Positions 17,066-40,194 of a DNA stretch of 64,000 nucleotides are shown piece by piece. Positions within the stretch are counted from its first letter, which is position 1, and every line of letters starts with the position of its first letter. Under the pieces are notes generated by a model that saw nothing but the letters and a program-made list of their open reading frames with translations, was not told where the DNA came from and did no database searches. The position numbers and the translations under genes were made by a program. Source of the stretch: Patescibacteria group bacterium. Lineage in GTDB: Bacteria; Patescibacteriota; Patescibacteriia; JBAZBY01. Location: positions 690,060 to 754,059 of the forward strand of contig JBAZBY010000001.1 in assembly GCA_041671225.1 (NCBI GenBank), written 5' to 3'.

Positions 17066-17256
17066 ACGGATTCAAAAAGCATGGTAAAGAGGTACCCCAT
17101 CATGATGATGCCGAAACCGACCACACCGGCAAAAACGCCTACCCGCGCTTTGAGTTGATCGTCGGTGAGATCCGGATGCTTTTTCTTCATCTCATTCCAG
17201 TATTTTTGATAGATATTCCGCTGTACATCACGAGAGCGAAAACCATCAAAGCACAA
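17062..17256 (-). pseudogene. gene fragment: duplicated internal segment of the vanX-like dipeptidase gene
   Basis: encodes 'FDGFRSRDVQRNIYQKYWNEMKKKHPDLTDDQLKARVGVFA', near-identical to residues 63-105 of the full gene at 18208-18864; it then diverges. Confidence 0.5.
17128..17250. repeat. 124-bp direct repeat, copy 1 (about 94 percent identical to 18541-18664)
   Basis: aligned by eye; about 7 mismatches. Confidence 0.8.
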
Positions 17257-17273: not shown

Positions 17274-18206
17274 CTATTCAATACGACGCCACGTATCCCT
17301 GAAAAGGGTCGTGGGAGTGTTGCCATCTTCCTGCTTCCGGAATTGCCACATCCATGACTGCGAAAAAAGAAGATCATTGAGCATTCCTATGGTCGCGCGA
17401 GGATAGCGGGCAAACTTCTTCAAGAGCACGAACCAGACCTTTGGATTCCTGGGTATTTGTTGTTTCATCCTCGCCAGCCAGTATTCTGACGTCCAATGGT
17501 AATCTTTTGTCCCATCTTCACTGTGTTCCAGTATGAAATGCCCCTGTGCACACTCCTGTAGCTGTCCGCGCATCGGATACCATCCACCAAAATCCTCCAA
17601 AAGAACTCTGGCAAAATGATACTGTGTGGAGCCGCGTTGCTGCTTGTTTGCGCCTTGGATGATGACGCTGGGGTCGGGCGGCTGATTGAAATGCAAAACG
17701 GTCGTTGCCAGATATCCTCCTGGTCTGAGTATTCGTTGGAAGATCGCAAACATCGTTTTGTAGATGTTGTTCTGCTTTCCCTGCAGCGTATCCTGCACTT
17801 GGACAAAATGTTCAATAGAGCCATTGGCAATGACTCCATCGAATCGCCCAGCCCAATCTTTTGGAATGTTCTGGTAGTTCATCAGATGCACTTCAAGGCC
17901 CTTATGCTGTGCTCGCTTTACCTGCTGCGCAGAGATCGTGATCCCCACGGCATGTGCTCCGCGCTTCTGTGCTGCTGTGAGTATTCTCCCATTGCCGCAC
18001 CCAACATCAAGGATGGTACTTCCTTTTGTGCAATGGATCTGATCCAGCAGCCATTCCGCTTGATTCGCCTGTGCTTGTATGTATGGTAGATTTGGATTTC
18101 CAAAATACTTTCCGTCCGTAAAATCTTCCACACCACCGGAAAACGCAGCATCAAAAAGATCATAACATCGAATGACCGTTCGTGATGTGACTTGGGAGGA
18201 GTCCAT
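17274..18206 (-). CDS. class I SAM-dependent methyltransferase, cyclopropane-fatty-acyl-phospholipid synthase-like
   Basis: 'ILDVGCGNGRI' motif I, 'GRFDGVIANGSIEHF'; real start at the ATG at 18206 (MDSSQ); the ORF-track N-terminal extension is read-through. Confidence 0.7.
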   Translation of the reverse strand: MDSSQVTSRTVIRCYDLFDAAFSGGVEDFTDGKYFGNPNLPYIQAQANQAEWLLDQIHCTKGSTILDVGCGNGRILTAAQKRGAHAVGITISAQQVKRAQHKGLEVHLMNYQNIPKDWAGRFDGVIANGSIEHFVQVQDTLQGKQNNIYKTMFAIFQRILRPGGYLATTVLHFNQPPDPSVIIQGANKQQRGSTQYHFARVLLEDFGGWYPMRGQLQECAQGHFILEHSEDGTKDYHWTSEYWLARMKQQIPRNPKVWFVLLKKFARYPRATIGMLNDLLFSQSWMWQFRKQEDGNTPTTLFRDTWRRIE

Positions 18207-18207
18207 A

Positions 18208-18864
18208 TTATATTCTTGGCGCCTCTTTGATCTCCCCGTACATGGCATGCGGCTTGTGCAGCGTGTATGCCCACAACTGATTGCCATAGTCAAAATGCCA
18301 CCACTCATCTTTGTCCTGTCGAAATTCTGCCGCATCCATGGCTTCGCGCAAGCGCTTGCGATTCTGACGCACTGTCTCATTAATGGAATAGTTCTCGTAG
18401 TAGAATGCCGCCGCCTCCGGTCCAAAGTGATCAAACGCTGTTCCCATGGCGAGCTCATTGCCGTTTTTGTCGGCAAGTGTGAGATCCACTGCCCCTCCTG
18501 TGCTATGAGGAGGAATGCGGCTTGGCTGGTCCGGGTCTGTGGCAAAAACACCTACCCGCGCTTTGAGCTGATCGTCAGTGAGATCCGGATGCTTTCCCTT
18601 CATCTCATTCCAGTATTTTTGATAGATATTCCGCTGTACATCACGAGAACGAAAACCATCGAAGATCTTGATGCGAAAACCGGGAAGGCAGCGTTGCACC
18701 TCCATCAGCCGCTCAACAACGCCTTGGCGCAGGAACATGCGTTCATCCTGCGAAAGCTTTTGTTGAAAGTAGGAAGGCTCCAAGACAAGAACATTCTGAT
18801 CCAAGGCGACCAAAGGCTCATTCGATTCAAGAATTGGGATGGATTCAAATGCAATAAGGGTCAT
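18208..18864 (-). CDS. D-Ala-D-Ala dipeptidase (VanX/DdpX, M15D family)
   Basis: 'IFDGFRS', 'STGGAVDLTL', 'EWWHFDYG' zinc-ligand and catalytic motifs aligned to VanX. Confidence 0.8.
   Translation of the reverse strand: MTLIAFESIPILESNEPLVALDQNVLVLEPSYFQQKLSQDERMFLRQGVVERLMEVQRCLPGFRIKIFDGFRSRDVQRNIYQKYWNEMKGKHPDLTDDQLKARVGVFATDPDQPSRIPPHSTGGAVDLTLADKNGNELAMGTAFDHFGPEAAAFYYENYSINETVRQNRKRLREAMDAAEFRQDKDEWWHFDYGNQLWAYTLHKPHAMYGEIKEAPRI
18541..18664. repeat. 124-bp direct repeat, copy 2 (inside the vanX-like coding sequence)
   Basis: see copy 1. Confidence 0.8.
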
Positions 18865-21194: not shown

Positions 21195-21268
21195 TGGCTC
21201 GGGGACAGGGATTCGAACCCCAATTACTGGGACCAGAACCCAGCGTCCTACCATTAGACGATCCCCGA
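21195..21268 (-). tRNA. tRNA-Gln (anticodon CUG), CCA encoded
   Basis: manual cloverleaf: acceptor UCGGGGA/UCCCCGA with U1-A72 and G73 (Gln identity elements), D-stem GUCU/GGAC, anticodon stem CUGGG/CCCAG with loop UUCUGGU, T-arm GGGGUUCGAAUCCC. Confidence 0.8.
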
Positions 21269-21358: not shown

Positions 21359-21428
21359 CCTCCTCACTGGAGTGGGGCCTACATTGAGCCCTTTGTTTCA
21401 TCTCTTGCATTGGAGAAGGAGGAGTTCC

Positions 21429-22148
21429 ATGGGAGACACTTCTACGGTCCAGAAACGGCCGATCGTCGGCAAGGAAGTGCTTGCGAGGGCGATCTGCGAG
21501 CAGTTCAAGGATGACGCGGCCCCGATGCATCTGCCCGAGGCACGCATGATGGTCGATACCGTACTCGGCGCCGTCGAGCAGCAGCTCGTTGCGGGCAACG
21601 ACATCCGGTTCATCGGGCTCGGCATCATCGAGGTGAAGGATGGCGTTCCGCAGTTCCGCCCGGCAGACGCTCTGCAGGCGGCCATCATCGCTGCTACGAA
21701 CCCGCCGCCGGCCAAGGACGGAGACGCCAAGGAGCCGGCCAAGGACGGAGACGCCGAACAGCCCGTCGGCGAGGGCACCACCGAGACCGAGGGGGACGGA
21801 GCACCCGCCACGGAGACCGAGCCAGTGACCGCCGAGTCCAACGCCGATCCTCCCGCGGAGGAGGTGGCCGGCAGTGAGGAGGACGGCACTGCCGAGCCCG
21901 CTGCCAGCGAGCCCGAGGCTGCCGGCGAAGGGGAACCGCCTACCGATCCGCCTGAGGAGGCTGCGCCCGCTGAGGAATCCGCCTCCGAGGATGGAGACGC
22001 CGAACCCGCTGCCAGCGAGCCCGTCGCCGGCGAAATCGTGGACCCGGGTAGCCAGGCGCCAGCGATTCAGGTCGGTGCCAAGGACACCCCCGTCGAGGTC
22101 GGCGAGAAGGCGCAGGCAGTCGGCGCCACCGAGGGCGCTGAGAGCTAG
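21429..22148 (+). CDS. HU/IHF-fold-like protein with a long acidic Pro/Ala/Glu-rich C-terminal tail
   Basis: strong SD GGAGAAGGAGGAG before the ATG at 21429; N-terminal about 90 aa align loosely to the HU dimerisation core ('AGNDIRFIGLGIIEVKD'); the beta-arm is not conserved; tail has repeats such as PAKDGDAKEPAKDGDAEQP. Confidence 0.5.
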   Translation: MGDTSTVQKRPIVGKEVLARAICEQFKDDAAPMHLPEARMMVDTVLGAVEQQLVAGNDIRFIGLGIIEVKDGVPQFRPADALQAAIIAATNPPPAKDGDAKEPAKDGDAEQPVGEGTTETEGDGAPATETEPVTAESNADPPAEEVAGSEEDGTAEPAASEPEAAGEGEPPTDPPEEAAPAEESASEDGDAEPAASEPVAGEIVDPGSQAPAIQVGAKDTPVEVGEKAQAVGATEGAES

Positions 22149-22394: not shown

Positions 22395-22422
22395 TTGACG
22401 CGCTTGTTCACGGTGCTACAAT
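22395..22422 (+). promoter_or_regulatory. strong sigma70-like promoter: TTGACG, 16-nt spacer, TACAAT
   Basis: would start a roughly 460-nt leader containing GCCGTCGC repeats and the 74-nt element before the gene at 22888. Confidence 0.5.
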
Positions 22423-22591
22423 GAAGTTACAAAAGAGCCGTCGCAGATAATCAGCGCCGTCGCAAAAAAAGAAAACGTTCGCTCGTTACATTACACAGGG
22501 GATAAAACACTGGAGTTTTTCTTTGTTACACGTGCGCCGTCGCGAGGCGAGCGCCGTCGCAAAAAAAGTGGATAACCTCCTTGTTCGTGAC

Positions 22592-22665
22592 CTGGCCAGC
22601 ATTGCGTTTCCGTTCTTAACCATTTTCCGCCACCAAAATGGGTCTCTCGGAATCACACTGGCCAG
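22592..22665. repeat. 74-nt element bounded by palindromic CTGGCCAG octamers with an internal hairpin CCATTTT-ccgccacc-AAAATGG, copy a
   Basis: about 50-nt core near-identical to the copy at 23821-23896. Confidence 0.7.
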
Positions 22666-22887
22666 ATCAGGGATGAGGAAGTGCCTCGTCTCGATTGCTC
22701 CAATGTGGAGCAAAGGCGGCACGCACCTTAACAAGCGTGAATAAAGGCTAGACGATACCGTTCAATCCACATAATTGATGCGCGGTTTGGACTCGCGCAT
22801 CCTTCTGGTTCCACATGTTCCGGCAAACTGTACTCCCGTACAGCAAGAGGAGGACGGACCACTTGCAGTAAAACAAAGGAGCATCAC

Positions 22888-23292
22888 ATGCTAACATCCC
22901 CAGCTCCTATCGTTCTCGCAATTCCTGACATACAGCCCGAAGTCCGTTCCACGATCGTCGAACACATCGCGCGGGAAGAGCATGTCAATAAGGAGCGCGC
23001 AGGACGCATCTTCGATGCGCTTCTGCATGTCTTCGCCTTGGCGATGTGCTTCCAGCACAAAGTGTTTCCGCTTGCGCCGAGCATCGGAAGAGCGGAAACG
23101 ACGTTCCAGCAGTTCCCCGTTGCATACCAGGCGTATTGCAGAGCGCTTGGACCAAAGCCGGTGAGGGTGAGAACTGGTTCCTATGAGACCAGCGAGCCCA
23201 GCCCGTTCTTTGGTCCCGAGTACACGATCCAGTTCATGATCGCCAACGGCATCGTTTTCGACGAGGACGTCTGGCGTGAGAAAAAGGAGTAG
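22888..23292 (+). CDS. hypothetical protein, paralog 1 of a tandem pair (134 aa)
   Basis: SD AAGGAG; shares 'R.GR.FDAL.H..A.A..F' and 'F..A..EY..C..LG' blocks with the next gene; no known family. Confidence 0.6.
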   Translation: MLTSPAPIVLAIPDIQPEVRSTIVEHIAREEHVNKERAGRIFDALLHVFALAMCFQHKVFPLAPSIGRAETTFQQFPVAYQAYCRALGPKPVRVRTGSYETSEPSPFFGPEYTIQFMIANGIVFDEDVWREKKE

Positions 23293-23298
23293 AGCGCC

Positions 23299-23724
23299 AT
23301 GCAGACGCCACTTTCGCTGAAACCCCCAGTGGCCATCACTGTCCCGGCGGTGGCCTGGCCCTTCCGTGACGAGCTCATCGACGTGTTCGCAACCCAGGAG
23401 CGCATCTCCCGTTCTCGTTCTACCCGTGTCATCGACGCACTCTTCCACTTCCTTGCTGTGGCCGCGACGTTCCGGGGGCGAAACCTCAGACCCGCGGATG
23501 AGATCTCCGCAGCGTGGATGCTCTTCGTCGCATATACAAAGGAGTACACCGAGTTCTGCGACGAGCTCGGCGGCTACATCCACTTCCGGCCCGCTACCAG
23601 TCCCCGTACCATCGCAACCACCACGCCGGCGGATGCGATCAACCTCATGGAGAAGTTCGAGATCCCGTTCAACAAGATGGTGTGGATGCCGGAGTGCGTA
23701 TCTCCGGAGACGGTCAAGTCCTGA
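23299..23724 (+). CDS. hypothetical protein, paralog 2 of the tandem pair (141 aa)
   Basis: SD AAAAAGGAG; paralogous to 22888-23292. Confidence 0.6.
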   Translation: MQTPLSLKPPVAITVPAVAWPFRDELIDVFATQERISRSRSTRVIDALFHFLAVAATFRGRNLRPADEISAAWMLFVAYTKEYTEFCDELGGYIHFRPATSPRTIATTTPADAINLMEKFEIPFNKMVWMPECVSPETVKS

Positions 23725-23820
23725 TTCACGCAGATAGAGAACAGTAGAGGCTTCGGCCTTTATTGACATAATGGGGAGTGGTGGCGCTGGTGGCTGCTAC
23801 TCCCCGACCTTTTTCGCGAT

Positions 23821-23896
23821 CTGGTCAGCGCATTGTTTCCGTTCTTAACCATTTTCCGCCACCAAAATGGGTCTCTCGGAAGCAGTTCCTGGCCAG
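23821..23896. repeat. 74-nt CTGGYCAG-bounded element, copy b
   Basis: see copy a. Confidence 0.7.
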
Positions 23897-24048
23897 GTCG
23901 GGGGAAAGGAACAGTAACGTTACCCCGATGCCTATTTTCTTTTTTGGGGGCATTATTTTCACCGCATGTTTTATGTTCATCTTCAGCAAGAGACGACGCA
24001 TGAAAAAGCCGAATTCACAATATACGATTTTCATCTGGTGATTTCTTG

Positions 24049-24130
24049 CTTCCCGTCTGGTGGCAACCGGGAGGCCGGAAACTCGTCCAGCTTCTAGCTC
24101 AAGGTGGCTCGCACCTTACATCGGTCGCAG
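24049..24130. promoter_or_regulatory. conserved upstream box (family copy 1): tggcaaccgggaggccggaaactcgtccagcttctagctcaaggtggctcgcaccttacatcggtcg
   Basis: about 80 percent identical over about 70 nt to 33301-33370; partial copies at 36149-36190 and 22718-22745; always 90-220 nt upstream of a start codon. Confidence 0.4.
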
Positions 24131-24160
24131 ACACGCGGCCACAGATAGAGGAGGTACGCA

Positions 24161-24820
24161 ATGTACCGCATACGAAACACGTGGAGTGTTGCGACGTGTT
24201 GGGTCGCGATCCTCTGCATGCTTACCATCCCGTTGCTCTCCGGGTGCTCAGAGGACCACGCGCAGGTCATTGCTCCGCCGCAGGAGCAGACCGCGCCCTC
24301 GGTGCCGGATCAGTACGCACAGTATGAGGCCCAGGGAACGCTGATCCAGCAGTGGATCGATCGCATGGACCCGTACGTCACGCAGAACGCCGACGGCACG
24401 TTCGTCTGCGACTGGCAGGCGTTTCAGCAGGATCTCGCGCGCACCAATCCCCAGATTGCGCTGGCTCTCAACGGCGCCGCCACTCCGGGCAAGGACGCCA
24501 AGGTGATCGTGGAACTGCGCGACGGAATTCCCATCGCCAACAAGGCGCTCAAGGAGCAGCCCGAGGGCATGACGCAGACCGCGTCCACGCGTTGCTACTG
24601 GCGCTGGTGGGGTCGCACCTGCTGCTACACCGGCTGGGATGCTGAAGTTGCCGTATGGACCAATGCCGCCGCGGCTGTCGTGGCGGGCATCGCCGGAGGT
24701 CCGATCGGCGCGGGGGTGGTCGCCTACATCGCGTGGGTAGCTGAACGTCTCACCGATCAGTGTGGTGGGTTCTGCATCAACGCAACGTGGGTTGGCGGCT
24801 TCTGGCTTACCTGTCCGTAG
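24161..24820 (+). CDS. lipoprotein with a Cys/Trp/Gly-rich hydrophobic C-terminal region
   Basis: lipobox 'LLSGC'; C-terminus 'CYWRWWGRTCCYTGW...AAAAVVAGIAGGPIGAGVVAYIAWVA...DQCGGFCINATWVGGFWLTCP', reminiscent of Gly-rich bacteriocin-like peptides. Confidence 0.6.
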   Translation: MYRIRNTWSVATCWVAILCMLTIPLLSGCSEDHAQVIAPPQEQTAPSVPDQYAQYEAQGTLIQQWIDRMDPYVTQNADGTFVCDWQAFQQDLARTNPQIALALNGAATPGKDAKVIVELRDGIPIANKALKEQPEGMTQTASTRCYWRWWGRTCCYTGWDAEVAVWTNAAAAVVAGIAGGPIGAGVVAYIAWVAERLTDQCGGFCINATWVGGFWLTCP

Positions 24821-24906
24821 CTTCGCGCTACACCTCTCTCACGTGCTCGGCGGGCCTCAGGTCTCTCCCGCCGAGCACAATTTTCTCCATTTGCTATCAT
24901 ACATTT

Positions 24907-25206
24907 ATGAACATCACGACAGATATCCTTCCATTCTATATTCTTTTGCTCGCGTTTGCGCCGGCCATAAACCTCCTTGCGCTGTATTTTGTCTTGCGGC
25001 GCAAAGCAAAATTTCAGGATCCAAAACAGGCAGTATTGGAGTTTGTCCGCATTCTTTTTGGTTATGCCATCTACACTGCGCTCATCTTGAATATCATCTT
25101 CCAGTATATGGATTTTCTCTGGTTCATTGCCGTGTATGTCGTCTTACTTGTCCTATGGTATCTCACGGAGCGCATGATCCGGGCGAAGTACGGTATTAAG
25201 GAATAA
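24907..25206 (+). CDS. small 3-TM membrane protein (99 aa)
   Basis: ATG at 24907 (the ORF-track start at 24760 overlaps the preceding gene); hydrophobic helices. Confidence 0.5.
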   Translation: MNITTDILPFYILLLAFAPAINLLALYFVLRRKAKFQDPKQAVLEFVRILFGYAIYTALILNIIFQYMDFLWFIAVYVVLLVLWYLTERMIRAKYGIKE

Positions 25207-25260: not shown

Positions 25261-25665
25261 ATGGACGTGAACAAAGTCACGCTCATCGGGAATCTGGTGC
25301 GGGACCCCGAAGCAAAAGAGACCAAAGGCGGAAACTCCCTTGCAACGTTCAGCGTTGCAACAAACCGCGCATGGCGGGATGCGGAGTCAAAAGAGAAGAA
25401 AGAGGCGGTGGAGTATCACAACGTGATTGCCTGGGGCAGGCTCGCGGAGATCATCAGCGAGTATGTGAAGAAGGGCAATAAAGTGTATGTGGAAGGCCGT
25501 CTGGCCAACCGCAGCTTTGAAGGCAAGGACGGTAAGAAGCGGTATTACACCGATGTGGTTGCAAGCAACCTCATCATGTTGACGCGTAAGCCCGCGGTGA
25601 AGGAGGACACTCCTGCAGCCATGGCGCCTGAAGAAGTGAACGTCGAGGAAGTCGTCGTCGCATAG
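25261..25665 (+). CDS. ssb: single-stranded DNA-binding protein
   Basis: OB-fold 'VTLIGNLVRDPE...TFSVATNRAW...HNVIAWGRLAE...VYVEGRL'; short acidic tail 'EEVVVA'. Confidence 0.85.
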   Translation: MDVNKVTLIGNLVRDPEAKETKGGNSLATFSVATNRAWRDAESKEKKEAVEYHNVIAWGRLAEIISEYVKKGNKVYVEGRLANRSFEGKDGKKRYYTDVVASNLIMLTRKPAVKEDTPAAMAPEEVNVEEVVVA

Positions 25666-31378: not shown

Positions 31379-33181
31379 GTGTTTACGCCCAGAAAGGCGG
31401 ATGCAGTGTTGCGCATTCTGATCACGGTCGTTGCGCTGGTTCTGTCAGCTGGAACTGCACAAGCGGCCAAGGTTCTCTGGTTTCCCTTCGACTACCCGAT
31501 CTCCGTCACCTGTGGGTTTGGGTGCTACACAGTACCCATCCATCATGACGGTGTGGATTACTCCTGCCCTGAAGGGACCTCCCTCTACGCCGCGATTGGT
31601 GGAACGGTAAAGAAGGTGGTGAACTCCGTATCGGGCCAGGTGTGCAGTTCACCGAATTTCGGCAACTACGTGCTCATTGAGAACACGCAGTATGGCGTTC
31701 AGGTGATCGAGGCACACATGCTGGCAGGCTCCATTACCGTTGTTGAAGGGCAGGTGATCACCGCAGGCCAGTACATCGGCAAATCCAGCAATTCTGGATA
31801 CACGATGACGCTGGTCAACGGGGTCTACAAATGCGGATATGGCGGAGGTCATCACCTTCACCTTGAGACGCGCGTTCTCATCAACGGCAGGTGGGTTGCG
31901 GTGGATCCCTATATCTATAATGGAGGGCTCTGGACCAGCCCCCTCCAGTACGGGAACGATTCCAACTGCACCCTCGCTTCCTCCTCCGAGGCGAAGTCCC
32001 AGATCACGGCGTGCCGGAACAGGAACACCTGGCTCGGCAGCGCGACCTCGGGATTCCACCAGTGGAAGCCCTCGGGCGGCAACGGCAAGTGGGTCTACAT
32101 CATCGATTACCAGAAGGGGTCCGTGGTGTTTGACGCTCTTGGCGGTGCGGAGAAGGCATATGCCGTGAGTAGCTACATGCTCGGTTGTTGGGCCGCGGAT
32201 CACGGTTGCGCTGGTTCTCGGCTCGGTTGTCCGATCACTGAACGCTACGCCTGGAACGGTGGGCTGCGCATGGACTGGAACTACGGGTATACATTTGAGA
32301 AGGCCGGCATTTCCTGCGGTCCCATCAAGTGGGGTACGGCGGGCTATTACGGCCCTGGCACGTTTGCGGGCTACGCCATCGATTGCCAGGCGACGTACAA
32401 GTTCGCTGCGTGCTATGCGCGTCATGGCGTTGGGAAGCTCGGGTATCCCGCGTCGGGAAATGGAATTCTGCCGTACGTGCATACCATCGGCAGCAATCCC
32501 AACATCCTCGCGCAGGATTTCAAGGGTGACCAGTGGGACAATGTTGTGCTGCTCTACGACCGTGAAGCGCCGCAGTATGCGAGCATCGTCGCATCCTTCT
32601 GCCCGTCACCCAACACGCCGGATCAGGCAAGCGAACTTCATGGCGGTTTCCGCGGCTACTGGGAAGCGAACGGTCGCTTCAGCACCATCGGCGTTCCGTT
32701 CACGGATGAAGTGCCGGTTTTCGGTAAGCCGTGGATCGTCTACCAGCGGTTCATCCGGCGATCCGGAAGCAACTGGGTCGCGTGCGAGCTCCGTTACTAC
32801 CCGAATGGCAGTGTGTCGAAAGCCACGCTGTTCACGAAGGCGGTTACCGTAAGCTCTGTCGACGTTGAAATTGACATCGTGGACGACACGCAGGAAAGCC
32901 CTGCGCCTCGCCCGGTGCTTCTCCTCAGCCCCAACCCGACGGCAGGCAGCAGCACCATCCAGTTCTCCCTTCCCACCGAGGGACAGGTTGCACTGCAGGT
33001 GTTTGATATCGCTGGCCGGCTGGTGGCCACGCTCCTGGACGAAACGCGTCCAAGCGGAGAATACCAGATTTCCTGGGATGGAAAGGACGGACAGGGCAAT
33101 GCGGCGGCAAGCGGAATCTACTTCGTTCGTCTCGCAACTCCTTCCTTCCAGACCACCAAGCGTCTCGTGGTACTCCGTTAG
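31379..33181 (+). CDS. M23 (LytM-type) metallopeptidase with a C-terminal T9SS-type sorting domain
   Basis: signal peptide; 'HHDGVDY...GNYVLIEN...GHHLHLE' (HxxxD/HxH); large Trp/Gly/Tyr-rich middle region; last about 85 aa 'LLLSPNPTAGSSTIQFSLPTEGQVALQVFDIAGRLVATLLDE...GEYQISWDGKDGQGNAAASGIYFVRLATPSFQTTKRLVVLR' match the Por/T9SS C-terminal domain pattern; GTG start. Confidence 0.75.
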   Translation: MFTPRKADAVLRILITVVALVLSAGTAQAAKVLWFPFDYPISVTCGFGCYTVPIHHDGVDYSCPEGTSLYAAIGGTVKKVVNSVSGQVCSSPNFGNYVLIENTQYGVQVIEAHMLAGSITVVEGQVITAGQYIGKSSNSGYTMTLVNGVYKCGYGGGHHLHLETRVLINGRWVAVDPYIYNGGLWTSPLQYGNDSNCTLASSSEAKSQITACRNRNTWLGSATSGFHQWKPSGGNGKWVYIIDYQKGSVVFDALGGAEKAYAVSSYMLGCWAADHGCAGSRLGCPITERYAWNGGLRMDWNYGYTFEKAGISCGPIKWGTAGYYGPGTFAGYAIDCQATYKFAACYARHGVGKLGYPASGNGILPYVHTIGSNPNILAQDFKGDQWDNVVLLYDREAPQYASIVASFCPSPNTPDQASELHGGFRGYWEANGRFSTIGVPFTDEVPVFGKPWIVYQRFIRRSGSNWVACELRYYPNGSVSKATLFTKAVTVSSVDVEIDIVDDTQESPAPRPVLLLSPNPTAGSSTIQFSLPTEGQVALQVFDIAGRLVATLLDETRPSGEYQISWDGKDGQGNAAASGIYFVRLATPSFQTTKRLVVLR

Positions 33182-33282
33182 ATCCGCCAGCGCCCCTTGG
33201 CGCAGGCAGAAGCTCCTTCACTCTCAACCCCGGGGTGTGCCGTGACCTTTCCAGGTCTCTGGCCACGACGCACCCCCCTTTT

Positions 33283-33370
33283 TTCCGCTCTCCCGAGCGG
33301 TGGCAGCCGGGAGGTCAGAAATTCGTCTGGTTTCTAGCATAAGGTGGCTTGCACCTTGACAGCGGTCGTC
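33283..33370. promoter_or_regulatory. conserved upstream box (family copy 2): ttccgctctcccgagcggtggcagccgggaggtcagaaattcgtctggtttctagcataaggtggcttgcaccttgacagcggtcg
   Basis: see 24049-24130; contains TTGACA. Confidence 0.4.
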
Positions 33371-33407
33371 TCTTTTGGAGGCGGCCAAGAACAGAAGGAG
33401 ATAGACG

Positions 33408-34079
33408 ATGAAGCGGTTTATCCTGCTCATCACGCTCATCGTCGTTTCTTTGGTGTTCGCGGCAGCGCCCATCAACGCGCAGCAGCCCATCCAAGAGACG
33501 ACCTGGGGGAGGATCAAAGTTCAGTATGGGGAGCAGACCCATTTGGATCGGCCCAATACTCTGGATCCGAAAAGCATCGGAGCATACACGGCAATCGCCT
33601 GGCCGTTCCCCTGGGAGAGCCCGAACGACTGGCGCGGCGATGAAGGTGATCGTACGGACGGTGGTTGGTATAACTCGCGATGTGCCGGCTGGATTCCGAC
33701 GCACAGCGGTGCCGATCACTATGCTCGCGACCTTTCGCGGAGGTACAAGTCCACGGCTGGCGCGCGCGTCTACGCCGGACTTACCGCGAAGGTCGTGAAA
33801 ATCGAGAAGTATGGCGCCGGGTGGAGCGTCGTACTGTACTATCCGAAACAGCGACTGTGCATACGCTACGCCCACATGGACGGCATCGTCGTGAACGTTG
33901 GTTGGACTGTGTCCATGCGGCAGTACCTTGGATACGTTCTTGACCAGGGGAGTGGGTCTCACCTGCATCTGGTCGTTTATGAGAATGTGCCGGAGGGTTC
34001 AAACGGCTTCCCCGCGTATATTCCGAGCGTCTGTAACAGGGACACGTGGCACGCCTGCCGGGTCTACTTCTTCTCCTGA
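33408..34079 (+). CDS. secreted M23-family peptidase (small)
   Basis: signal peptide 'LLITLIVVSLVFAAAPINAQ'; 'HSGADHYARD' (HxxxD) and 'GSHLHLV' (HxH). Confidence 0.6.
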   Translation: MKRFILLITLIVVSLVFAAAPINAQQPIQETTWGRIKVQYGEQTHLDRPNTLDPKSIGAYTAIAWPFPWESPNDWRGDEGDRTDGGWYNSRCAGWIPTHSGADHYARDLSRRYKSTAGARVYAGLTAKVVKIEKYGAGWSVVLYYPKQRLCIRYAHMDGIVVNVGWTVSMRQYLGYVLDQGSGSHLHLVVYENVPEGSNGFPAYIPSVCNRDTWHACRVYFFS

Positions 34080-36253: not shown

Positions 36254-36368
36254 TTTTTTCAGAGAACAACTGAATTTTCTATACTCATGGAACCAGTAAT
36301 TGGGGCGGAGGGTTCCGGACTCACTTATTTCAATACCTATCCAAGGCCATAGCGGCTTTGTTTTTTGT

Positions 36369-37037
36369 ATGGATTTGATTACCGCATTACTTTTTCTTGT
36401 CGGTATCGCCGATGTGGTGATTGGCGTATATATTGGCATACAAAAACCAGTGACCACCATCCGTAAATCGTACACATGGGTGGTGTTTGGAACAGCTGGG
36501 TGGGTATTGGCGAATGCTGTTTTTCGACTTATGAGCACGGATGCCGCTGTTGAAATTGCGGAACGCCTCACGTTCTTATTCGGCACCGTAGCGACATCAG
36601 CCTTTCTCTACTTCTCTTTCGTTTTCCCATATACAAAGCGTCCCCTGAAGCAATGGATGTTTTTGTATGTAGTTTTAAGTGCTGTCGTCATTTGTATTTT
36701 TGCCTTATTTACAGAATTTTTTCTTGTTAGAAGCGTTTCAGTTGGATCACATGAAAGTATCAGTACCTATGGACAATTCTACGCAGTATTTTTTATTTGG
36801 TTTATTGGTACTTGGATATGGAGTATTGCGAATCTTCTATTGAAGTATAAGGATGCAGATGCGTTTTCTCGTTGGCAAATACGCATGATGCTGTTTGCGG
36901 TTCCGTTAACAATTATTCTCGCAATTCTTTTTGATCTCATTGCGCCGTATCTCCAGATTGCTGGCACAGGGTGGTTCGCTTCAGTATCATCGGTTATTTG
37001 GCTGGGTTTTACTGTTTATATTGTGATGAAACGATGA
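36369..37037 (+). CDS. stand-alone polytopic membrane sensor-domain protein, paralog A (ends ...YIVMKR)
   Basis: about 7 TM helices; 'DAFSRWQIRMM' block; homologous to the N-terminal membrane domain of the histidine kinase at 40191; stop overlaps the next start (ATGA). Confidence 0.65.
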   Translation: MDLITALLFLVGIADVVIGVYIGIQKPVTTIRKSYTWVVFGTAGWVLANAVFRLMSTDAAVEIAERLTFLFGTVATSAFLYFSFVFPYTKRPLKQWMFLYVVLSAVVICIFALFTEFFLVRSVSVGSHESISTYGQFYAVFFIWFIGTWIWSIANLLLKYKDADAFSRWQIRMMLFAVPLTIILAILFDLIAPYLQIAGTGWFASVSSVIWLGFTVYIVMKR

Positions 37038-37699
37038 ACACCACCGACATCCTTTCCTGGTTCAACATCGTGGTTGCCGCAGCAGAGCTCTATTTTGCAT
37101 TCTATATGCTGCTCACGCGCGTGCGGAGCAAGGTGAGCGTTTTTTATTTTTTGTTTTCCCTTGGAGTTGCGGGGTGGGTATACAGCATCGGCGGGTTTTA
37201 TCTGTTTGAGAATCCAGGGGTCGAGCGGTTTCACCTCAACCTCGCGTATATTTCCGCCTCGCTCATCATGTCGGCGCTCTTTCTCTTTGCCATGGTGTTT
37301 CCTTTCCAGAAGCGGCGACTGGGGCTGGAACACTATGCACTCGCGATCCTTCCATTCCTGGCATTTGCGGTCGCATCCTTCGCGCATCAGATCCTCACCG
37401 GTTACATCAAAGATCCCACGGAGTATTTCCTTGGTCCGCTGTACACGCCGTACACCATCTATATCGTGGGATATTATCTCATTGCCATGGCGCTGTTGGT
37501 GGAAAAGTACCGTATGAGTGACGGCATCCACCGCTGGCAGCTCAAGAATCTCATTTTGAGCCTGCTCTTTGCGGGCGTCATGGGCGTTACCTTCAACCTG
37601 CTGATCCAATTCTGGGGCATCGCGTATCTGAACCACGTGGGAACCCTTGCGTCGGTCATTTGGTTCAGCACGACCTTATACATTGTGATGAAGAGATGA
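37034..37699 (+). CDS. stand-alone membrane sensor-domain protein, paralog B
   Basis: 'DGIHRWQLKNL' block, ends ...LYIVMKR; ATGA overlap at both ends. Confidence 0.65.
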   Translation: MNTTDILSWFNIVVAAAELYFAFYMLLTRVRSKVSVFYFLFSLGVAGWVYSIGGFYLFENPGVERFHLNLAYISASLIMSALFLFAMVFPFQKRRLGLEHYALAILPFLAFAVASFAHQILTGYIKDPTEYFLGPLYTPYTIYIVGYYLIAMALLVEKYRMSDGIHRWQLKNLILSLLFAGVMGVTFNLLIQFWGIAYLNHVGTLASVIWFSTTLYIVMKR

Positions 37700-38376
37700 T
37701 TGACCAGCCATATTTTGCAATTGCGGCCATGATAATAATAGGGCTTTTTGATTTTGGATTCGCATCCTTTATTTTTACCCGCTATCAACGAGAGTCGCGG
37801 ATTATCATGTATGGCATGTTTGCGCTGATGGTTGGTGGGTGGGTTCTCCTCAATGGGGTTGGTCTACTCTTTGAGCGAGGCGGTGCAACCTCAGATTTTT
37901 TTGGTCGAAGTGCATTTGTCTTTGCGGCTTTCATTTTTCCGTTTATGTATGTCTTCTCTGTTCTTTTCCCATTCCCATCAGCGCGTATTGACGGACGGTT
38001 CGTTTTTCTTGCCCTGCTGCCGGCAATACTTTTGTCCGCCCTTGCATACTTCACCGACGCACTCATTCAGGGGTTTGATTTAACTCGGTATGCACAAACA
38101 ATACCCGGTGAGGGTTTTTGGCTCTACGTGCTGTATATACTGATATTCTTTGGATTAATTCTTGCGGAACTCCTCGGTAAATTCCGGCGTTCCGATGGCA
38201 TTCATCGCTGGCAACTAAAGTACTTAATTATTGTCATAGCCCTTTCTGGCTTTATCGGCATTATCACGGTACTTATTTTGCCTTATATCTGGTACTTTGA
38301 CTCACTTGCATGGATTGGGCCATGTTCATCAATCATTTGGCTTGGTGGGAGTATGTATATTGTTATGAAGAGATGA
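37696..38376 (+). CDS. stand-alone membrane sensor-domain protein, paralog C
   Basis: 'DGIHRWQLKYL' block, ends ...MYIVMKR. Confidence 0.65.
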   Translation: MIDQPYFAIAAMIIIGLFDFGFASFIFTRYQRESRIIMYGMFALMVGGWVLLNGVGLLFERGGATSDFFGRSAFVFAAFIFPFMYVFSVLFPFPSARIDGRFVFLALLPAILLSALAYFTDALIQGFDLTRYAQTIPGEGFWLYVLYILIFFGLILAELLGKFRRSDGIHRWQLKYLIIVIALSGFIGIITVLILPYIWYFDSLAWIGPCSSIIWLGGSMYIVMKR

Positions 38377-38440
38377 TTTATTTACGACAGCAATAAGCAC
38401 GTCTAATTTCTACTTGATTAGTTTTCCCAGGTACTGACAA

Positions 38441-39142
38441 ATGAGTTATATTATTAGAAAAGTAAAATCAGTTTTTAAAACTATTTATTTCACTTTTTTT
38501 TATAAAGAATTATTTAAAGATTACCGCTTTACTATTAGTAAAGCTTCGACTGAAGTAGAACGAAGGGAGTTGTATCGATTAAGATACCAGGTGTACTGCG
38601 AGGAATATGGTTATATTGATAGGAATAACTGTCCAGACGGATTAGAAAAAGATGTTTATGATGAGCATTCAGATTACTTTATTATTCGTGATAGTAAAAA
38701 TAATATTGCTGCAACGGTAAGAATTATTAAGAATTCTCAAGCAGGATTTCCTCTTGAGAAAAATTTTCACCTAAATATTGAAACATCAAATCTTGATCAT
38801 GATCATTTAGTCGAGATTTCAAGACTTATAGTTGCTAGAAAGTATCGAAAAAAATTATTGCTATTGTTTCTAGTGAAGGGTTTATATTTGTATGCGATAG
38901 AACAAAAGATAACTCATGCATATTTTATAATCGATGAAAAACTCTATCCTCTTCTCTTGAAGATTAAAGTACCTGTAATAAAAATTGGAACACCGGCAAT
39001 CTATCAGGGTTTAACATTTCCATGTCTTGTTGATGTTACTGAATGGGAACGTAATGTTAGAAGAAGTAGAAGTTTTAATAGGTTTTATTATTTTGGCGGT
39101 ATGGATTTAAGCGATGACGGAAATAAGTATGAAGTTCATTAA
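38441..39142 (+). CDS. GNAT-fold N-acyltransferase of the FeeM / N-acyl amino acid synthase type
   Basis: 'RRELYRLRYQVYCEEYGYID....DGLEKDVYDEHSDYFIIRD', 'VEISRLIVARKYR' match the conserved blocks of the exosortase-associated N-acyl amino acid synthase family; very AT-rich. Confidence 0.65.
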   Translation: MSYIIRKVKSVFKTIYFTFFYKELFKDYRFTISKASTEVERRELYRLRYQVYCEEYGYIDRNNCPDGLEKDVYDEHSDYFIIRDSKNNIAATVRIIKNSQAGFPLEKNFHLNIETSNLDHDHLVEISRLIVARKYRKKLLLLFLVKGLYLYAIEQKITHAYFIIDEKLYPLLLKIKVPVIKIGTPAIYQGLTFPCLVDVTEWERNVRRSRSFNRFYYFGGMDLSDDGNKYEVH

Positions 39143-39159
39143 GATTTACGAGGGATACC

Positions 39160-40194
39160 GTGCAAGGCATTCAAGATAATTTGGGCGAGTATTTTAATTT
39201 TACGCCAGGTGTTTTTCTATATATATATATACTAACATTTATTCCATCATGGATCGCACTGATATTATCACTTCGTTATCTTAAGAGACGCAACATTCAC
39301 GCTAGTCTCTTTTGGCTCATTATCCTTTTTGGTTTATTGGCCTTGCCGTATCTGTATGTATTAGTTGGGAGCGTAGGTCTTCCTTGGCAATTTTTGAGCG
39401 CGATTATTCTCATTCCGACATACAGCTTCTCAAAAATTTTAATGAACAGAAAAACATATTCTGATACCTTCGGGGGTTCATTTTTTTGGACTTTATATGC
39501 AAAAGTGTATGATTTGTTGCTTCTTTTCAGTCCCTATAAACAACTTGTATCTCAGCTTTTAGAAGAAATAAGAGTAACTAAGCCAGCTGGGAATATTATT
39601 GATATTGGTTGCGGTACAGGAAATCTTGCGGTGTCACTTTCTGCGAATACAAACTATACTATTTTAGGAATAGATAATTCTATTGGAATGCTTACGCGTG
39701 CACAAAAAAAACATTATGATAAACAAAGGGTGCTTTTTCAAAAAGTTGATCTAGAGAATGAAAATTTTATATCTGAGATAGATGGAAAATTTGATATTGC
39801 TATTATTAGTAATGTGCTTTATACACTTGGGTCACCAATTATGGTTCTTAAGCAAATCAAAGCATTATTAAACAATGATGGCTTCTTAATTATCTCAGAA
39901 CCTAAGCAGGGTTCTAGTTTATATGCTTTATTCAAAGAGCACTATAGACAATTGTTTAGTCATTTTAGTATTAATAATCTAATCATATCTGTTAGGGATT
40001 TTTTTATTTTATTAGTTGTTGGTGTATTTAATTTTGCAATTTCTTTTAGAGCACGGGGTAGGGGGTCATATTCTTTTTTTTTACCGCACAATCTTACTCA
40101 ACTAGTTCAGGAATCTGGATTCAGTATTGAAAAAATTGGTGCGTCTTATGCAAACCAAAATATCTTACTTAAAGCAAAAAAAATACTAACATGA
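39160..40194 (+). CDS. membrane-anchored class I SAM-dependent methyltransferase
   Basis: 2-3 N-terminal TM helices, motif I 'IIDIGCGTGNLAV', 'DIAIISNVLY'; stop overlaps the histidine kinase start (ATGA). Confidence 0.7.
   Translation: MQGIQDNLGEYFNFTPGVFLYIYILTFIPSWIALILSLRYLKRRNIHASLFWLIILFGLLALPYLYVLVGSVGLPWQFLSAIILIPTYSFSKILMNRKTYSDTFGGSFFWTLYAKVYDLLLLFSPYKQLVSQLLEEIRVTKPAGNIIDIGCGTGNLAVSLSANTNYTILGIDNSIGMLTRAQKKHYDKQRVLFQKVDLENENFISEIDGKFDIAIISNVLYTLGSPIMVLKQIKALLNNDGFLIISEPKQGSSLYALFKEHYRQLFSHFSINNLIISVRDFFILLVVGVFNFAISFRARGRGSYSFFLPHNLTQLVQESGFSIEKIGASYANQNILLKAKKILT

What the first reader, a model, noticed from the sequence alone, without database searches (positions are those of the whole stretch)
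24161..25206. Lipoprotein with a Cys/Trp/Gly-rich hydrophobic C-terminus followed by a small 3-TM protein (toxin and immunity-like pair?)
- The 219-aa lipoprotein ends in a segment with 7 Cys, many Trp and a Gly/Ala-rich hydrophobic stretch (AAAAVVAGIAGGPIGAGVVAYIAWVA). This composition is typical of Gly-rich membrane-active bacteriocins and microcins.
- The 99-aa polytopic membrane protein immediately downstream (ATG at 24907, overlapping the lipoprotein 3' end region by frame shift) is the classic position of an immunity protein.
- The locus is preceded by the conserved upstream box and lies in a GC-rich block.
The toxin and immunity reading is speculative.
Basis: inference. Interest (0 to 1): 0.5.

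Follow-up and report, generated by a model that had tools for sequence, protein, structure and literature searches.

The report
Variable lipoprotein with small membrane partner
This is a real surface lipoprotein followed by a conserved small three-helix membrane protein, a two-gene envelope module of unknown function in tiny symbiotic (Patescibacteria) bacteria, and the tests possible here do not support it being a bacteriocin toxin with its immunity protein.

Summary
Both ORFs are real. 24161-24820 encodes a 219-aa lipoprotein (lipobox LLSGC) and 24907-25206 a 99-aa three-helix membrane protein. They do not overlap: an 86-nt gap holds a strong terminator-like hairpin.

The lipoprotein belongs to a rare unannotated family: 58 clusters among 1.84 billion representatives, mostly Patescibacteria. 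It has no Pfam, NCBIfam, PHROG, PDB or viral-structure match. A confident model (pLDDT 87) shows a helical domain. It is followed by two Trp/Cys-rich beta-hairpins clamping an uncharged helix-Pro-helix hairpin. Three Cys pairs covary, implying extracytoplasmic disulfides.

The Gly/Ala-rich stretch is allele-specific. Family-wide that segment is constrained only in composition, like a signal peptide, so I read it as a membrane anchor.

The small membrane partner follows in 14 of 17 loci, and ssb lies within 2.5 kb in eight. Against a near-identical relative (SSB 97%, partner 95%) the lipoprotein is only 59% identical with saturated dS. That indicates replacement of the lipoprotein allele alone.

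Partner and lipoprotein diverge independently, and no exporter or processing gene lies within roughly 10-15 kb. The pairing is confirmed, but the toxin-immunity reading is not supported, though not excluded.

My best reading (confidence 0.4) is a doubly anchored, strain-variable envelope lipoprotein with a membrane partner.

The parts
23808..23910 (+). Upstream 'box', copy 2. A long imperfect hairpin of about 100 nt with the apical stem-loop CCATTTT-CCGCCACC-AAAATGG. Copy 1 lies at about 22579-22680, ahead of a different gene pair.
   Evidence: Direct repeat D3. The 46-nt core is identical in both copies. The + strand folds with z -3.5 and -4.9, and the - strand of copy 2 does not. Its 3' half is 100% conserved in L002. 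No Rfam match.
24030..24160 (+). Conserved structured leader of the lipoprotein gene, with three hairpins, ending in the Shine-Dalgarno GGAGG at 24150-24154.
   Evidence: 88-93% identical to L002 while the coding sequence is 38-80% identical. It aligns with L001 and L005. The consensus fold has 24 pairs, one of them compensatory, from only three sequences.
24161..24820 (+). Lipoprotein gene (219 aa). Signal peptide and lipobox Cys29 at 24161-24247, flexible linker aa 30-49, helical domain aa 50-135 (24308-24565), C-terminal module aa 141-219 (24581-24817).
   Evidence: ORF and translation. Family of 58 clusters and 57-sequence alignment. AlphaFold2 model with pLDDT 87.3 and pTM 0.72. No Pfam, NCBIfam, PHROG, PDB or BFVD relative.
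24635..24757 (+). Uncharged Ala/Gly-rich helix-Pro/Gly turn-helix hairpin (aa 159-199) inside the C-terminal module. Inferred to be a re-entrant membrane anchor.
   Evidence: Helices 158-178 and 181-201 in the model. Family-wide the median longest uncharged run is 32 aa, Pro sits at the centre in 45 of 57 members, and pairwise identity is 0.21.
24843..24890 (+). Terminator-like element: a 12-bp GC-rich stem-loop (24843-24878) followed by ACAATTTTCTCC.
   Evidence: RNA fold -33 kcal/mol, z -5.7. A comparable hairpin follows the lipoprotein stop codon in all 16 loci examined, with different sequences.
24907..25206 (+). Small membrane protein (99 aa) with three hydrophobic helices. Predicted N-terminus outside and basic C-terminal tail inside. 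This is the conserved partner of the lipoprotein.
   Evidence: ORF. dN/dS 0.09 against L002. Positional and weak sequence homologs in other loci, for example E 1.7e-7 to L012 and 1e-6 to L001. No family match.
25261..25665 (+). Single-strand DNA-binding protein gene (ssb). A recurrent neighbour of the module, given as context rather than as a shown functional part.
   Evidence: Pfam SSB, E 3e-36. ssb lies within 2.5 kb of the lipoprotein in the window, L001, L002, L021, L022, L009, L010 and L012.

Best explanation
The pair is a conserved two-gene cell-envelope module of Patescibacteria, not a released bacteriocin.

Shown:
- The 219-aa protein is a lipobox lipoprotein of a rare, unannotated family.
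- Its mature part is a flexible linker, a helical domain and a C-terminal module.
- In that module two Trp/Cys-rich beta-hairpins clamp an uncharged helix-turn-helix hairpin.
- Three Cys pairs covary across the family.
- A small three-helix membrane protein follows in nearly all loci, after a strong hairpin.
- Between near-identical genomes only the lipoprotein allele has been replaced.

Inferred:
- The Cys pairs form disulfides, so the module sits outside the cytoplasm.
- The hydrophobic hairpin dips into the membrane and the Trp-rich sheet lies at the interface. The protein would then be tethered at both ends, by the N-terminal lipid and the C-terminal hairpin, with the helical domain on the surface.
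- The gene is strongly expressed from a conserved structured leader. The partner is made in smaller amounts by read-through of the hairpin.
- The partner associates with, inserts or stabilises the lipoprotein in the membrane.
- The lipoprotein is an exposed component whose alleles are exchanged by homologous recombination between the conserved leader and the conserved downstream genes. That pattern fits frequency-dependent selection from phages, hosts or competitors.
- The module may act as a membrane-organising scaffold, in the manner of the Gly-zipper lipoproteins SlyB and YfgH.
For: Family and fold:
- Lipobox and Shine-Dalgarno are present, and the lipobox Cys is kept in 56 of 57 members.
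- The family has 58 clusters, all 180-250 aa with one architecture.
- The model is confident and all five models agree.
- Cys covariation: C145-C154 p = 2.6e-15, C155-C205 p = 5e-6, C201-C218 p = 4.6e-5.

Hydrophobic segment:
- Median length is 41 aa and the median longest uncharged run is 32 aa.
- It is rich in Ala, Gly, Val, Leu and Ile, with a central Pro in 45 of 57 members.
- Its pairwise identity is 0.21, the same as the signal peptide, against 0.44 and 0.38 for the flanking beta-hairpins.

Partner and context:
- The partner is present 57-110 nt downstream in 14 of 17 loci.
- The adjacency holds in both orders, lipoprotein-partner-ssb and ssb-X-lipoprotein-partner.
- A hairpin follows the stop codon in 16 of 16 loci examined.
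- The neighbourhood is chromosomal housekeeping, with ssb, a clamp-loader subunit and tRNA-Gln, and there are no phage or plasmid matches.

Allele replacement:
- Window vs L002 gives lipoprotein dS about 1.0 and dN 0.34. The partner has dS 0.28 and SSB has dS 0.23.
- Identity breakpoints fall at the leader and just after the hairpin.
- L002's allele is as close to L001's (61%) as to the window's (59%), although SSB is 85% vs 97%.
Against: - No experiment or homolog of known function supports any role.
- Membrane insertion of the hairpin is inferred from composition only. Just 23 of 57 members reach a Kyte-Doolittle mean of 1.6 over 19 residues.
- A few members have short, partly charged segments there. 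The hairpin could instead be the buried core of a soluble domain or an oligomer interface.
- The hairpin between the genes, the different base composition and the independent divergence of the two proteins argue against a tight, specific physical complex.
- Average dN/dS of the lipoprotein is 0.34, so positive selection is not shown.
- L002 is a 2-kb assembled contig, so a chimeric assembly cannot be formally excluded.
- The link to ssb is unexplained.
Confidence: 0.4

Rival explanations
1. Surface-tethered, contact-dependent membrane toxin with a three-helix immunity protein. This is the first reader's idea in its most defensible form, analogous to Caulobacter CdzC/CdzD with CdzI. The lipoprotein's hydrophobic hairpin would insert into a neighbouring cell's membrane, and the small membrane protein would protect the producer.
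For: - The pair is conserved in 14 of 17 loci.
- CdzI is likewise a small protein with three predicted transmembrane segments and no homologs. It protects against cell-surface glycine-zipper proteins (PMC5380434).
- GxxxG-type runs occur in this allele and strongly in P0055. One member weakly hits Gly-zipper_YMGG (E 0.0036).
- Some loci carry two or three small membrane paralogs after the lipoprotein: L005, L010, L020 and L021. This resembles immunity arrays.
- The lipoprotein is the hypervariable gene.
- A strongly expressed first gene with a leaky hairpin resembles bacteriocin operons (my knowledge).
- L014 has a Peptidase_C39_2 gene two genes downstream.
Against: - Partner and lipoprotein diverge independently: 95% vs 59% in L002 and 32% vs 54% in L001. 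Spearman rho is 0.22, p = 0.08 over 66 pairs. Cognate immunity should co-vary.
- The putative warhead is the least conserved part and behaves like a lipid-facing anchor.
- The same C-terminal framework is present in all 57 members.
- No type I or ABC exporter or leader peptidase was found among the ORFs I scanned with Pfam, which reach about 10 kb upstream and 18 kb downstream.
- The gene is single-copy in a housekeeping context conserved down to about 30% identity.
- There are no plasmid or phage copies.
- The Zixiibacteriota homolog and L003 lack a partner.
Confidence: 0.2
2. Two functionally unrelated neighbours. A strongly expressed monocistronic lipoprotein gene ends at its own terminator, and the small membrane protein is a separate gene of a variable 'envelope island' beside ssb.
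For: - A strong terminator-like hairpin separates them in every locus.
- Their evolution is decoupled.
- Their codon composition is very different, GC3 0.80 vs 0.58.
- Neighbouring genes in related loci are also small membrane proteins and other lipoproteins.
Against: - The order lipoprotein then partner, with a 57-110 nt spacing, persists across lipoproteins only about 30-40% identical.
- It persists through rearrangements that moved ssb from downstream to upstream.
- The gap after the hairpin is about 25-45 nt, which leaves little room for an independent promoter.
Confidence: 0.15
3. Relic of a phage lysis cassette. The lipoprotein would be a unimolecular spanin (N-terminal lipid anchor plus C-terminal membrane segment) and the three-helix, N-out/C-in protein with a basic tail would be a class I holin.
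For: - The architecture resembles the u-spanin definition in PMC6139136.
- There are sub-threshold PHROG hits to 'Rz-like spanin' (E 0.007 and 0.014). They cover only the signal peptide and linker region, residues 12-70.
- The small protein has the size and topology of class I holins (my knowledge).
Against: - There is no endolysin, no phage genes and no match in 50,697 phage records or in BFVD.
- The context is chromosomal housekeeping and conserved over deep divergence.
- u-spanins have a terminal transmembrane domain, beta-rich periplasmic parts and no periplasmic Cys. This protein is helical and Cys-rich, and its hydrophobic hairpin is internal to a folded module.
- Patescibacteria are generally held to lack an outer membrane for a spanin to act on (my knowledge).
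Confidence: 0.03

Closest known systems
Glycine-zipper two-helix lipoproteins of Gram-negative outer membranes (SlyB, YfgH)
   Same: Both have an N-terminal lipid anchor and an uncharged hairpin of two short helices rich in small residues. In SlyB and YfgH that hairpin is embedded in a membrane, and these proteins form oligomeric rings that stabilise membrane domains under stress (bioRxiv 10.64898/2025.12.22.696046; 10.64898/2026.06.08.730324).
   Different: - No sequence relationship: 1 of 57 members gives a sub-threshold Gly-zipper hit.
- Here the hairpin is C-terminal and clamped between disulfide-stapled Trp-rich beta-hairpins.
- A helical ectodomain precedes it.
- The host lineage is thought to lack an outer membrane.
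- A dedicated small membrane partner follows.
- Oligomerisation is untested.
Caulobacter Cdz contact-dependent bacteriocin system (CdzC/CdzD with immunity protein CdzI)
   Same: A cell-surface-associated hydrophobic, Gly-rich protein is encoded near a small protein with three predicted transmembrane segments and no known homologs (PMC5380434).
   Different: - Cdz toxins are 84-86 aa, carry RTX-like signals and need the adjacent type I secretion genes cdzAB.
- Here the protein is a 191-aa mature Sec/lipobox lipoprotein with a folded helical domain.
- No exporter is nearby.
- The partner does not co-vary with it.
Phage unimolecular spanins (T1 gp11 type)
   Same: An N-terminal lipoprotein signal plus a C-terminal hydrophobic membrane element in one polypeptide (PMC6139136).
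   Different: - This gene is not in a lysis cassette or a phage.
- The protein is Cys-rich and helical, whereas u-spanins are Cys-free and beta-rich.
- The hydrophobic element is an internal hairpin, not a terminal transmembrane domain.
- There is no structural match in BFVD.
Strain-variable surface lipoproteins of reduced-genome bacteria, such as Mycoplasma variable lipoproteins (comparison from my knowledge)
   Same: A lipid-anchored surface protein in a small-genome, host-associated, wall-poor lineage, with the gene far more variable between close strains than its flanks.
   Different: - Variation here is whole-allele replacement at a single-copy locus between conserved flanks.
- It is not phase or size variation within multigene families.
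- There is no sequence relationship.

Membership tests
Bacterial lipoproteins (Lgt/LspA substrates) | N-terminal signal peptide with a basic n-region, a hydrophobic core and the lipobox [LVI][ASTVI][GAS]C | tested here: met
   The sequence is MYRIRNTWSVATCWVAILCMLTIPLLSG-C29. The Cys column is conserved in 56 of 57 family members.
Bacterial lipoproteins (Lgt/LspA substrates) | Actual diacylglyceryl modification and signal peptidase II cleavage | not testable with these tools
   This needs biochemistry. The presence of lgt and lspA in this genome was not examined, because only 64 kb of about 1 Mb is in hand.
Class II / Gly-rich bacteriocins and microcins | Sequence membership in a described bacteriocin family | tested here: not met
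   Pfam on all 57 members gave only one sub-threshold hit, Bacteriocin_IId at E 0.064. NCBIfam, PHROG and PDB gave nothing.
Class II / Gly-rich bacteriocins and microcins | A small precursor whose leader is removed to release a free peptide | tested here: not met
   The mature part is 191 aa, lipid-anchored through a conserved lipobox, and carries a confidently folded helical domain. Later proteolytic release cannot be excluded.
Class II / Gly-rich bacteriocins and microcins | An adjacent dedicated exporter or processing gene (ABC transporter, C39 peptidase) | tested here: not met
   None was found among the larger window ORFs I scanned with Pfam, which reach about 10 kb upstream and 18 kb downstream. 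Of 17 loci, only L014 has a Peptidase_C39_2 gene nearby.
Class II / Gly-rich bacteriocins and microcins | A cognate immunity gene inherited and diverging together with the toxin | tested here: not met
   Lipoprotein vs partner identity is 59% vs 95% (window-L002) and 54% vs 32% (window-L001). There is no significant rank correlation over 66 pairs.
Class II / Gly-rich bacteriocins and microcins | Antimicrobial activity | not testable with these tools
   This needs expression and killing assays.
Polymorphic toxin systems | A conserved N-terminal part with unrelated, swapped C-terminal toxin domains | tested here: not met
   All 57 members share the same C-terminal framework, YWWGxxCCYxG ... GGFCxNxxWxGxxWxTxP. 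Only the hydrophobic filler between the two motifs varies.
Cdz-type contact-dependent glycine-zipper bacteriocins | Small (about 85 aa) glycine-zipper proteins exported by adjacent type I secretion genes | tested here: not met
   The defining features come from PMC5380434. Here the protein is a 219-aa lipoprotein and no type I secretion genes were found.
Cdz-type contact-dependent glycine-zipper bacteriocins | A small three-transmembrane immunity protein encoded in the cluster | tested here: inconclusive
   A three-helix 99-aa protein is present and conserved. The resemblance is architectural only, and immunity function is untested.
Phage unimolecular spanins | Encoded in a phage lysis cassette with a holin and an endolysin | tested here: not met
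   The context is chromosomal and there are no phage matches. The definition comes from PMC6139136.
Phage unimolecular spanins | Lipoprotein signal plus a terminal C-terminal transmembrane domain, with a beta-rich and Cys-free periplasmic part | tested here: not met
   The lipobox is present. However, the hydrophobic element is an internal hairpin followed by 20 more residues. The ectodomain is helical, and 7 Cys follow the lipobox Cys.
Glycine-zipper two-helix lipoproteins (SlyB/YfgH; Pfam Gly-zipper families) | Sequence match to Gly-zipper domain models | tested here: not met
   One of 57 members matches, below threshold: Gly-zipper_YMGG at E 0.0036 and Gly-zipper_Omp at E 0.036.
Glycine-zipper two-helix lipoproteins (SlyB/YfgH; Pfam Gly-zipper families) | Lipid anchor plus an uncharged two-helix hairpin rich in small residues | tested here: met
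   This is a shared architecture ('works like'), not evidence of membership.
Glycine-zipper two-helix lipoproteins (SlyB/YfgH; Pfam Gly-zipper families) | Ring-shaped oligomers in the membrane | not testable with these tools
   Only monomer prediction was available.

The most novel reading that the evidence does not exclude
The module would be a Patescibacteria-specific cell-contact device. The lipoprotein is lipid-anchored in the symbiont's membrane. It presents a disulfide-stapled, Trp-rich platform whose hydrophobic hairpin inserts into the membrane of another cell, either a host or a competitor. It would act as an adhesin or fusogen-like anchor, or as a contact-dependent membrane toxin. 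Strain-specific alleles would set partner specificity, and the three-helix protein would protect or organise the producer's own membrane. This would be a new fold and a new type of episymbiont surface system.
Probability: 0.12. Interest if true: 0.75.

Novelty: new variant of a known kind. Interest (0 to 1): 0.45.

Why it matters
Patescibacteria are abundant, mostly uncultured bacteria that live attached to other cells, and most of their envelope proteins have no known function.

This work defines a rare protein family with a confidently modelled fold that matches nothing solved. The family has a fixed small membrane partner and sits in the core genome beside ssb. Its allele was replaced wholesale between otherwise near-identical genomes.

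That pattern marks molecules exposed to phages, hosts or rivals. The module is therefore a concrete, testable candidate for strain-specific surface interactions in these organisms.

The work also shows that a Gly-rich hydrophobic stretch followed by a small membrane protein is not enough to call a bacteriocin and its immunity protein.

Tried and rejected
Searches that found nothing:
- Pfam, NCBIfam and PHROGs on both proteins and on partner homologs gave nothing above threshold.
- PDB sequence profile search gave nothing.
- Foldseek against viral structures gave nothing at E <= 0.001.
- tblastn against phage and plasmid collections gave no match.
- Rfam gave nothing for the box or the leader.
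- A literature search for Patescibacteria variable lipoproteins returned only irrelevant microbiome papers.

- The AlphaFold-database fold library was not available.
- The word-index protein search was too insensitive: 4 hits with the single sequence and 6 with the profile. The family only appeared with the exhaustive HMM search.
It worked with the 11 closest sequences.
- The small partner's own search found only one homolog.

The upstream box:
- Its 24-nt apical core gave 0 exact matches in the genome and metagenome collections.
- It was absent from the 13 loci held at that point.
- It therefore appears specific to this lineage, seen here and in L002.
- I considered an integron attC-like reading and dropped it. 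The R''/R' consensus is not at the stem base, and only two copies exist.

Ideas considered and set aside:
- High GC as a sign of foreign origin. The lipoprotein's GC3 exceeds its neighbours' in the window, L008, L010, L012 and L015. It does not in L009, L014, L001 (below its ssb) or the Zixiibacteriota locus. In the window HU and SSB are also GC3-rich. Expression-linked or recombination-linked codon bias is therefore as likely as foreign origin.
- A second family copy or a related C-terminal domain in the window or in any locus. None was found.
Full report
**Observation.**
- ORF 24161-24820 (+) encodes 219 aa, preceded by GGAGG six bases upstream.
- The N-terminus, MYRIRNTWSVATCWVAILCMLTIPLLSG-C29, is a standard lipoprotein signal.
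- Seven further Cys follow: C83, C145, C154, C155, C201, C205 and C218.
- ATG 24907 opens a 99-aa ORF with three hydrophobic segments and a basic tail.
- One correction: the genes do not overlap. Only the mechanical GTG-started ORF 24760-25206 overlaps.
- The 86-nt gap contains a 12-bp GC-rich hairpin followed by a T-rich run (z = -5.7).
- The upstream box is real, with a 46-nt core identical at 22607-22652 and 23836-23881.
- The lipoprotein gene is GC-rich, with GC 0.64 and GC3 0.80.

**Origin and context.**
- The same protein, annotated with a start too far downstream, is recorded as a hypothetical protein. It comes from a Patescibacteria MAG contig of 1.03 Mb.
- The neighbourhood is chromosomal. 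It holds tRNA-Gln, an HU-like protein, ssb directly downstream, a Memo-like protein and a clamp-loader subunit. It also holds glycosyltransferase, M23 peptidases and 7TM histidine kinases.
- No ABC or type I exporter or C39 peptidase was found among the larger ORFs I scanned with Pfam. Those ORFs reach about 10 kb upstream and 18 kb downstream.
- No copy exists in the phage or plasmid collections.

**The protein family.**
- Word-indexed searches found only four relatives.
- An exhaustive profile search of 1.84 billion cluster representatives found 58. All are 180-250 aa and match over the full length.
- Clusters hold one to five sequences each.
- Named sources are six Patescibacteria/Parcubacteria MAGs and two unclassified 'bacterium' MAGs. 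One is Zixiibacteriota and one is labelled Gammaproteobacteria.
- None of Pfam, NCBIfam, PHROGs or PDB sequences recognises the family.
- The only weak signals are sub-threshold 'Rz-like spanin' hits over the signal peptide. One member each also hits a Gly-zipper model and a class IId bacteriocin model.
- The gene is single-copy in the window and in every locus.

**Structure.**
- With four sequences the model was poor (pLDDT 66).
- With 57 sequences it is confident: pLDDT 87.3, pTM 0.72, all five models agreeing.
- After the signal helix and a flexible linker come long helices (50-72, 85-103, 111-132) with a small beta-hairpin.
- Then follow beta-hairpin 143-157, helices 158-178 and 181-201, and beta-hairpin 203-217.
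- I could not search the AlphaFold database.

**The C-terminal module.**
- The alignment has YWWGxxCCYxG before and GGFCxNxxWxGxxWxTxP after a variable hydrophobic segment.
- Cys residues appear and disappear in pairs across the family:

| Cys pair | Both present | Both absent | p |
|---|---|---|---|
| C145-C154 | 31 | 25 | 2.6e-15 |
| C155-C205 | 50 | 5 | 5e-6 |
| C201-C218 | 8 | 38 | 4.6e-5 |

- I infer three disulfides, and therefore an extracytoplasmic, oxidised location.
- The segment between the motifs has a median length of 41 aa and a median longest uncharged run of 32 aa.
- It is 17% Ala and 14% Gly, and has a Pro at its centre in 45 of 57 members.
- Its pairwise identity is only 0.21, equal to the signal peptide (0.20). 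The flanking beta-hairpins have 0.44 and 0.38, and the helical domain has 0.30.
- The 'bacteriocin-like' Gly/Ala run is therefore a property of this allele. What is conserved is hydrophobic character.
- That is how lipid-facing anchors evolve, so I read the hairpin as a re-entrant membrane anchor under a Trp-rich interfacial sheet.
- This step is inference. Only 23 of 57 members pass a classical hydropathy threshold, and a buried core or oligomer interface remains possible.

**The partner.**
- I obtained genomic context for 17 distinct family members.
- In 14 of them a gene for an 87-106-aa protein starts 57-110 nt after the lipoprotein stop codon. That protein has two or three hydrophobic helices and a basic tail.
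  - The loci are the window, L001, L002, L005, L008 (cut by the contig end), L009, L010/L011, L012, L014, L015, L019, L020, L021 and L022.
- Several partners are detectably homologous, for example window-L012 at E 1.7e-7 and L012-L015 at 6e-15.
- L020 has a fused double-length version plus another copy. L005, L010 and L021 have an extra small membrane ORF.
- L004 has only a 62-aa two-helix ORF. The Zixiibacteriota locus and L003 have none.
- ssb lies within 2.5 kb in eight loci. It is downstream in the window, L001, L002, L021 and L022, and upstream in L009, L010 and L012.
- Because the partner follows the lipoprotein in both arrangements, the pairing is not just inherited synteny.
- A GC-rich hairpin of differing sequence follows the lipoprotein stop codon in all 16 loci examined. 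Only about 25-45 nt remain before the partner's start codon.
- I infer strong expression of the lipoprotein and weaker read-through expression of the partner.

**Hypervariability.**
- L002 comes from a very close relative.
- Its DNA identity to the window is 90-100% across half the box, the leader, the partner gene and ssb.
- Identity falls to 38-80% across exactly the lipoprotein gene.
- Nei-Gojobori estimates, window vs L002:

| Gene | dS | dN |
|---|---|---|
| Lipoprotein | about 1.0 | 0.34 |
| Partner | 0.28 | 0.024 |
| SSB | 0.23 | 0.016 |

- Synonymous sites are saturated even in the signal peptide. This is replacement by an old, divergent allele, not merely fast protein evolution.
- L002's allele is as close to L001's (61%) as to the window's (59%), although SSB identities are 85% and 97%.
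- The conserved, structured 130-nt leader and the conserved downstream genes would serve as homology arms.
- Average dN/dS is 0.34, so positive selection is not demonstrated.

**Test of the toxin-immunity idea.**
- A cognate immunity protein should change with its toxin. Here the two are decoupled:

| Comparison | Partner identity | Lipoprotein identity |
|---|---|---|
| Window vs L002 | 95% | 59% |
| Window vs L001 | 32% | 54% |

- Over 66 locus pairs the rank correlation is weak (rho 0.22, p = 0.08).
- Other points against: the lack of exporters, the conserved lipobox, the uniform C-terminal framework and the core-genome location. There are also no plasmid or phage copies.
- Together this argues against a classical bacteriocin or a polymorphic toxin.
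- It does not exclude a Cdz-like contact-dependent system. CdzI is also a small three-transmembrane protein without homologs (PMC5380434). The occasional arrays of small membrane paralogs also fit an immunity reading. I give this rival 0.2.

**Other rivals.**
- Unrelated neighbours (0.15) is supported by the hairpin and the decoupled evolution. It is contradicted by the persistent order and spacing.
- A spanin/holin relic (0.03) fails on several counts. It lacks the phage context, is Cys-rich and helical, and its hydrophobic element is internal (PMC6139136).

**Best explanation (0.4).**
- The module is a doubly anchored, disulfide-stabilised, strain-variable envelope lipoprotein with a small membrane partner.
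- In architecture it resembles the Gly-zipper lipoproteins SlyB and YfgH, which combine a lipid anchor with a membrane hairpin and stabilise membranes.
- It is not a member of that family.
- What the module does for the cell remains unknown.

**Verdict.**
- The gene pairing is confirmed and extended to a family.
- The toxin-immunity function is not supported.
- This is an undescribed family with an unmatched fold and a notable allele-replacement pattern, of moderate interest.

Noticed in passing
window 22579-22680 and 23808-23910: Two copies of a hairpin element of about 100 nt with an identical 46-nt core. It folds well only on the + strand. Copy 1 lies about 150 nt downstream of a good promoter-like site (TTGACG-16-TACAAT, 22395-22422) and ahead of a different gene pair. 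Copy 2 directly follows a terminator-like hairpin (23772-23806). There is no Rfam match and no exact core match in the genome or metagenome collections. It may be a lineage-specific regulatory or small RNA, or a repeat element.
   Followed up: partly
window 24030-24160: A leader of about 130 nt upstream of the lipoprotein gene is far better conserved than the coding sequence across the window, L002, L005 and L001. It is predicted to form three hairpins, with one compensatory pair. One predicted pairing covers part of the Shine-Dalgarno sequence. There are too few sequences to prove a structure.
   Followed up: partly
window 22888-23292 and 23299-23724: Two tandem paralogous ORFs of 134 and 141 aa (27% identity, E 1e-12). 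They have no signal peptide and no Pfam, NCBIfam or PHROG match, and their GC3 is high. They sit between the two box copies.
   Followed up: partly
window about 21429-22148: An HU-like DNA-binding protein (weak Bac_DNA_binding match) carries a tail of about 170 residues rich in acidic residues, Pro and Ala, with internal repeats. At GC 0.68 it is the most GC-rich gene in the window. It lies next to tRNA-Gln (21195-21268, - strand).
   Followed up: no
window 17128-17251 and 18541-18664: Direct repeats of 124 nt (94% identical) flank a cyclopropane-fatty-acid-synthase-like methyltransferase gene (17274-18551, - strand).
   Followed up: no
window 58882-58990 and 59123-59238: A segment of about 110 nt inside the RNase P RNA gene is duplicated almost exactly about 240 nt upstream, just outside the gene. 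The gene spans 59009-59462, which is 454 nt against a 367-position model.
   Followed up: no
window 36300-42983; L015 112-3801; L001 3153-7915: A signalling cluster lies about 11-18 kb downstream. It holds three tandem HisKA_7TM-only paralogs, a FeeM/autoinducer-synthase-like acyltransferase, a methyltransferase and a 7TM-GAF histidine kinase. The same gene types sit immediately upstream of the lipoprotein in L015 and a few kb downstream in L001. Compared with L001, the window has about 12 kb of extra DNA between ssb and the kinase.
   Followed up: no
L009 2790-3777; L020 5132-5797: Related loci carry further lipoproteins rich in Trp and Cys that are not family members. In L009 one has a nearly identical signal peptide and its own 74-aa two-helix membrane ORF, making tandem 'lipoprotein plus small membrane protein' cassettes beside ssb.
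   Followed up: partly
window-wide (e.g. 7317-8741, 21372-22148, 23299-24820, 31379-34079): Codon third-position GC is strongly heterogeneous, from 0.20 to 0.80. The GC3-rich genes include secreted M23 peptidases, the HU-like protein, SSB and the lipoprotein. The lipoprotein gene's GC3 is above its neighbours' in most, but not all, of the related loci.
   Followed up: partly
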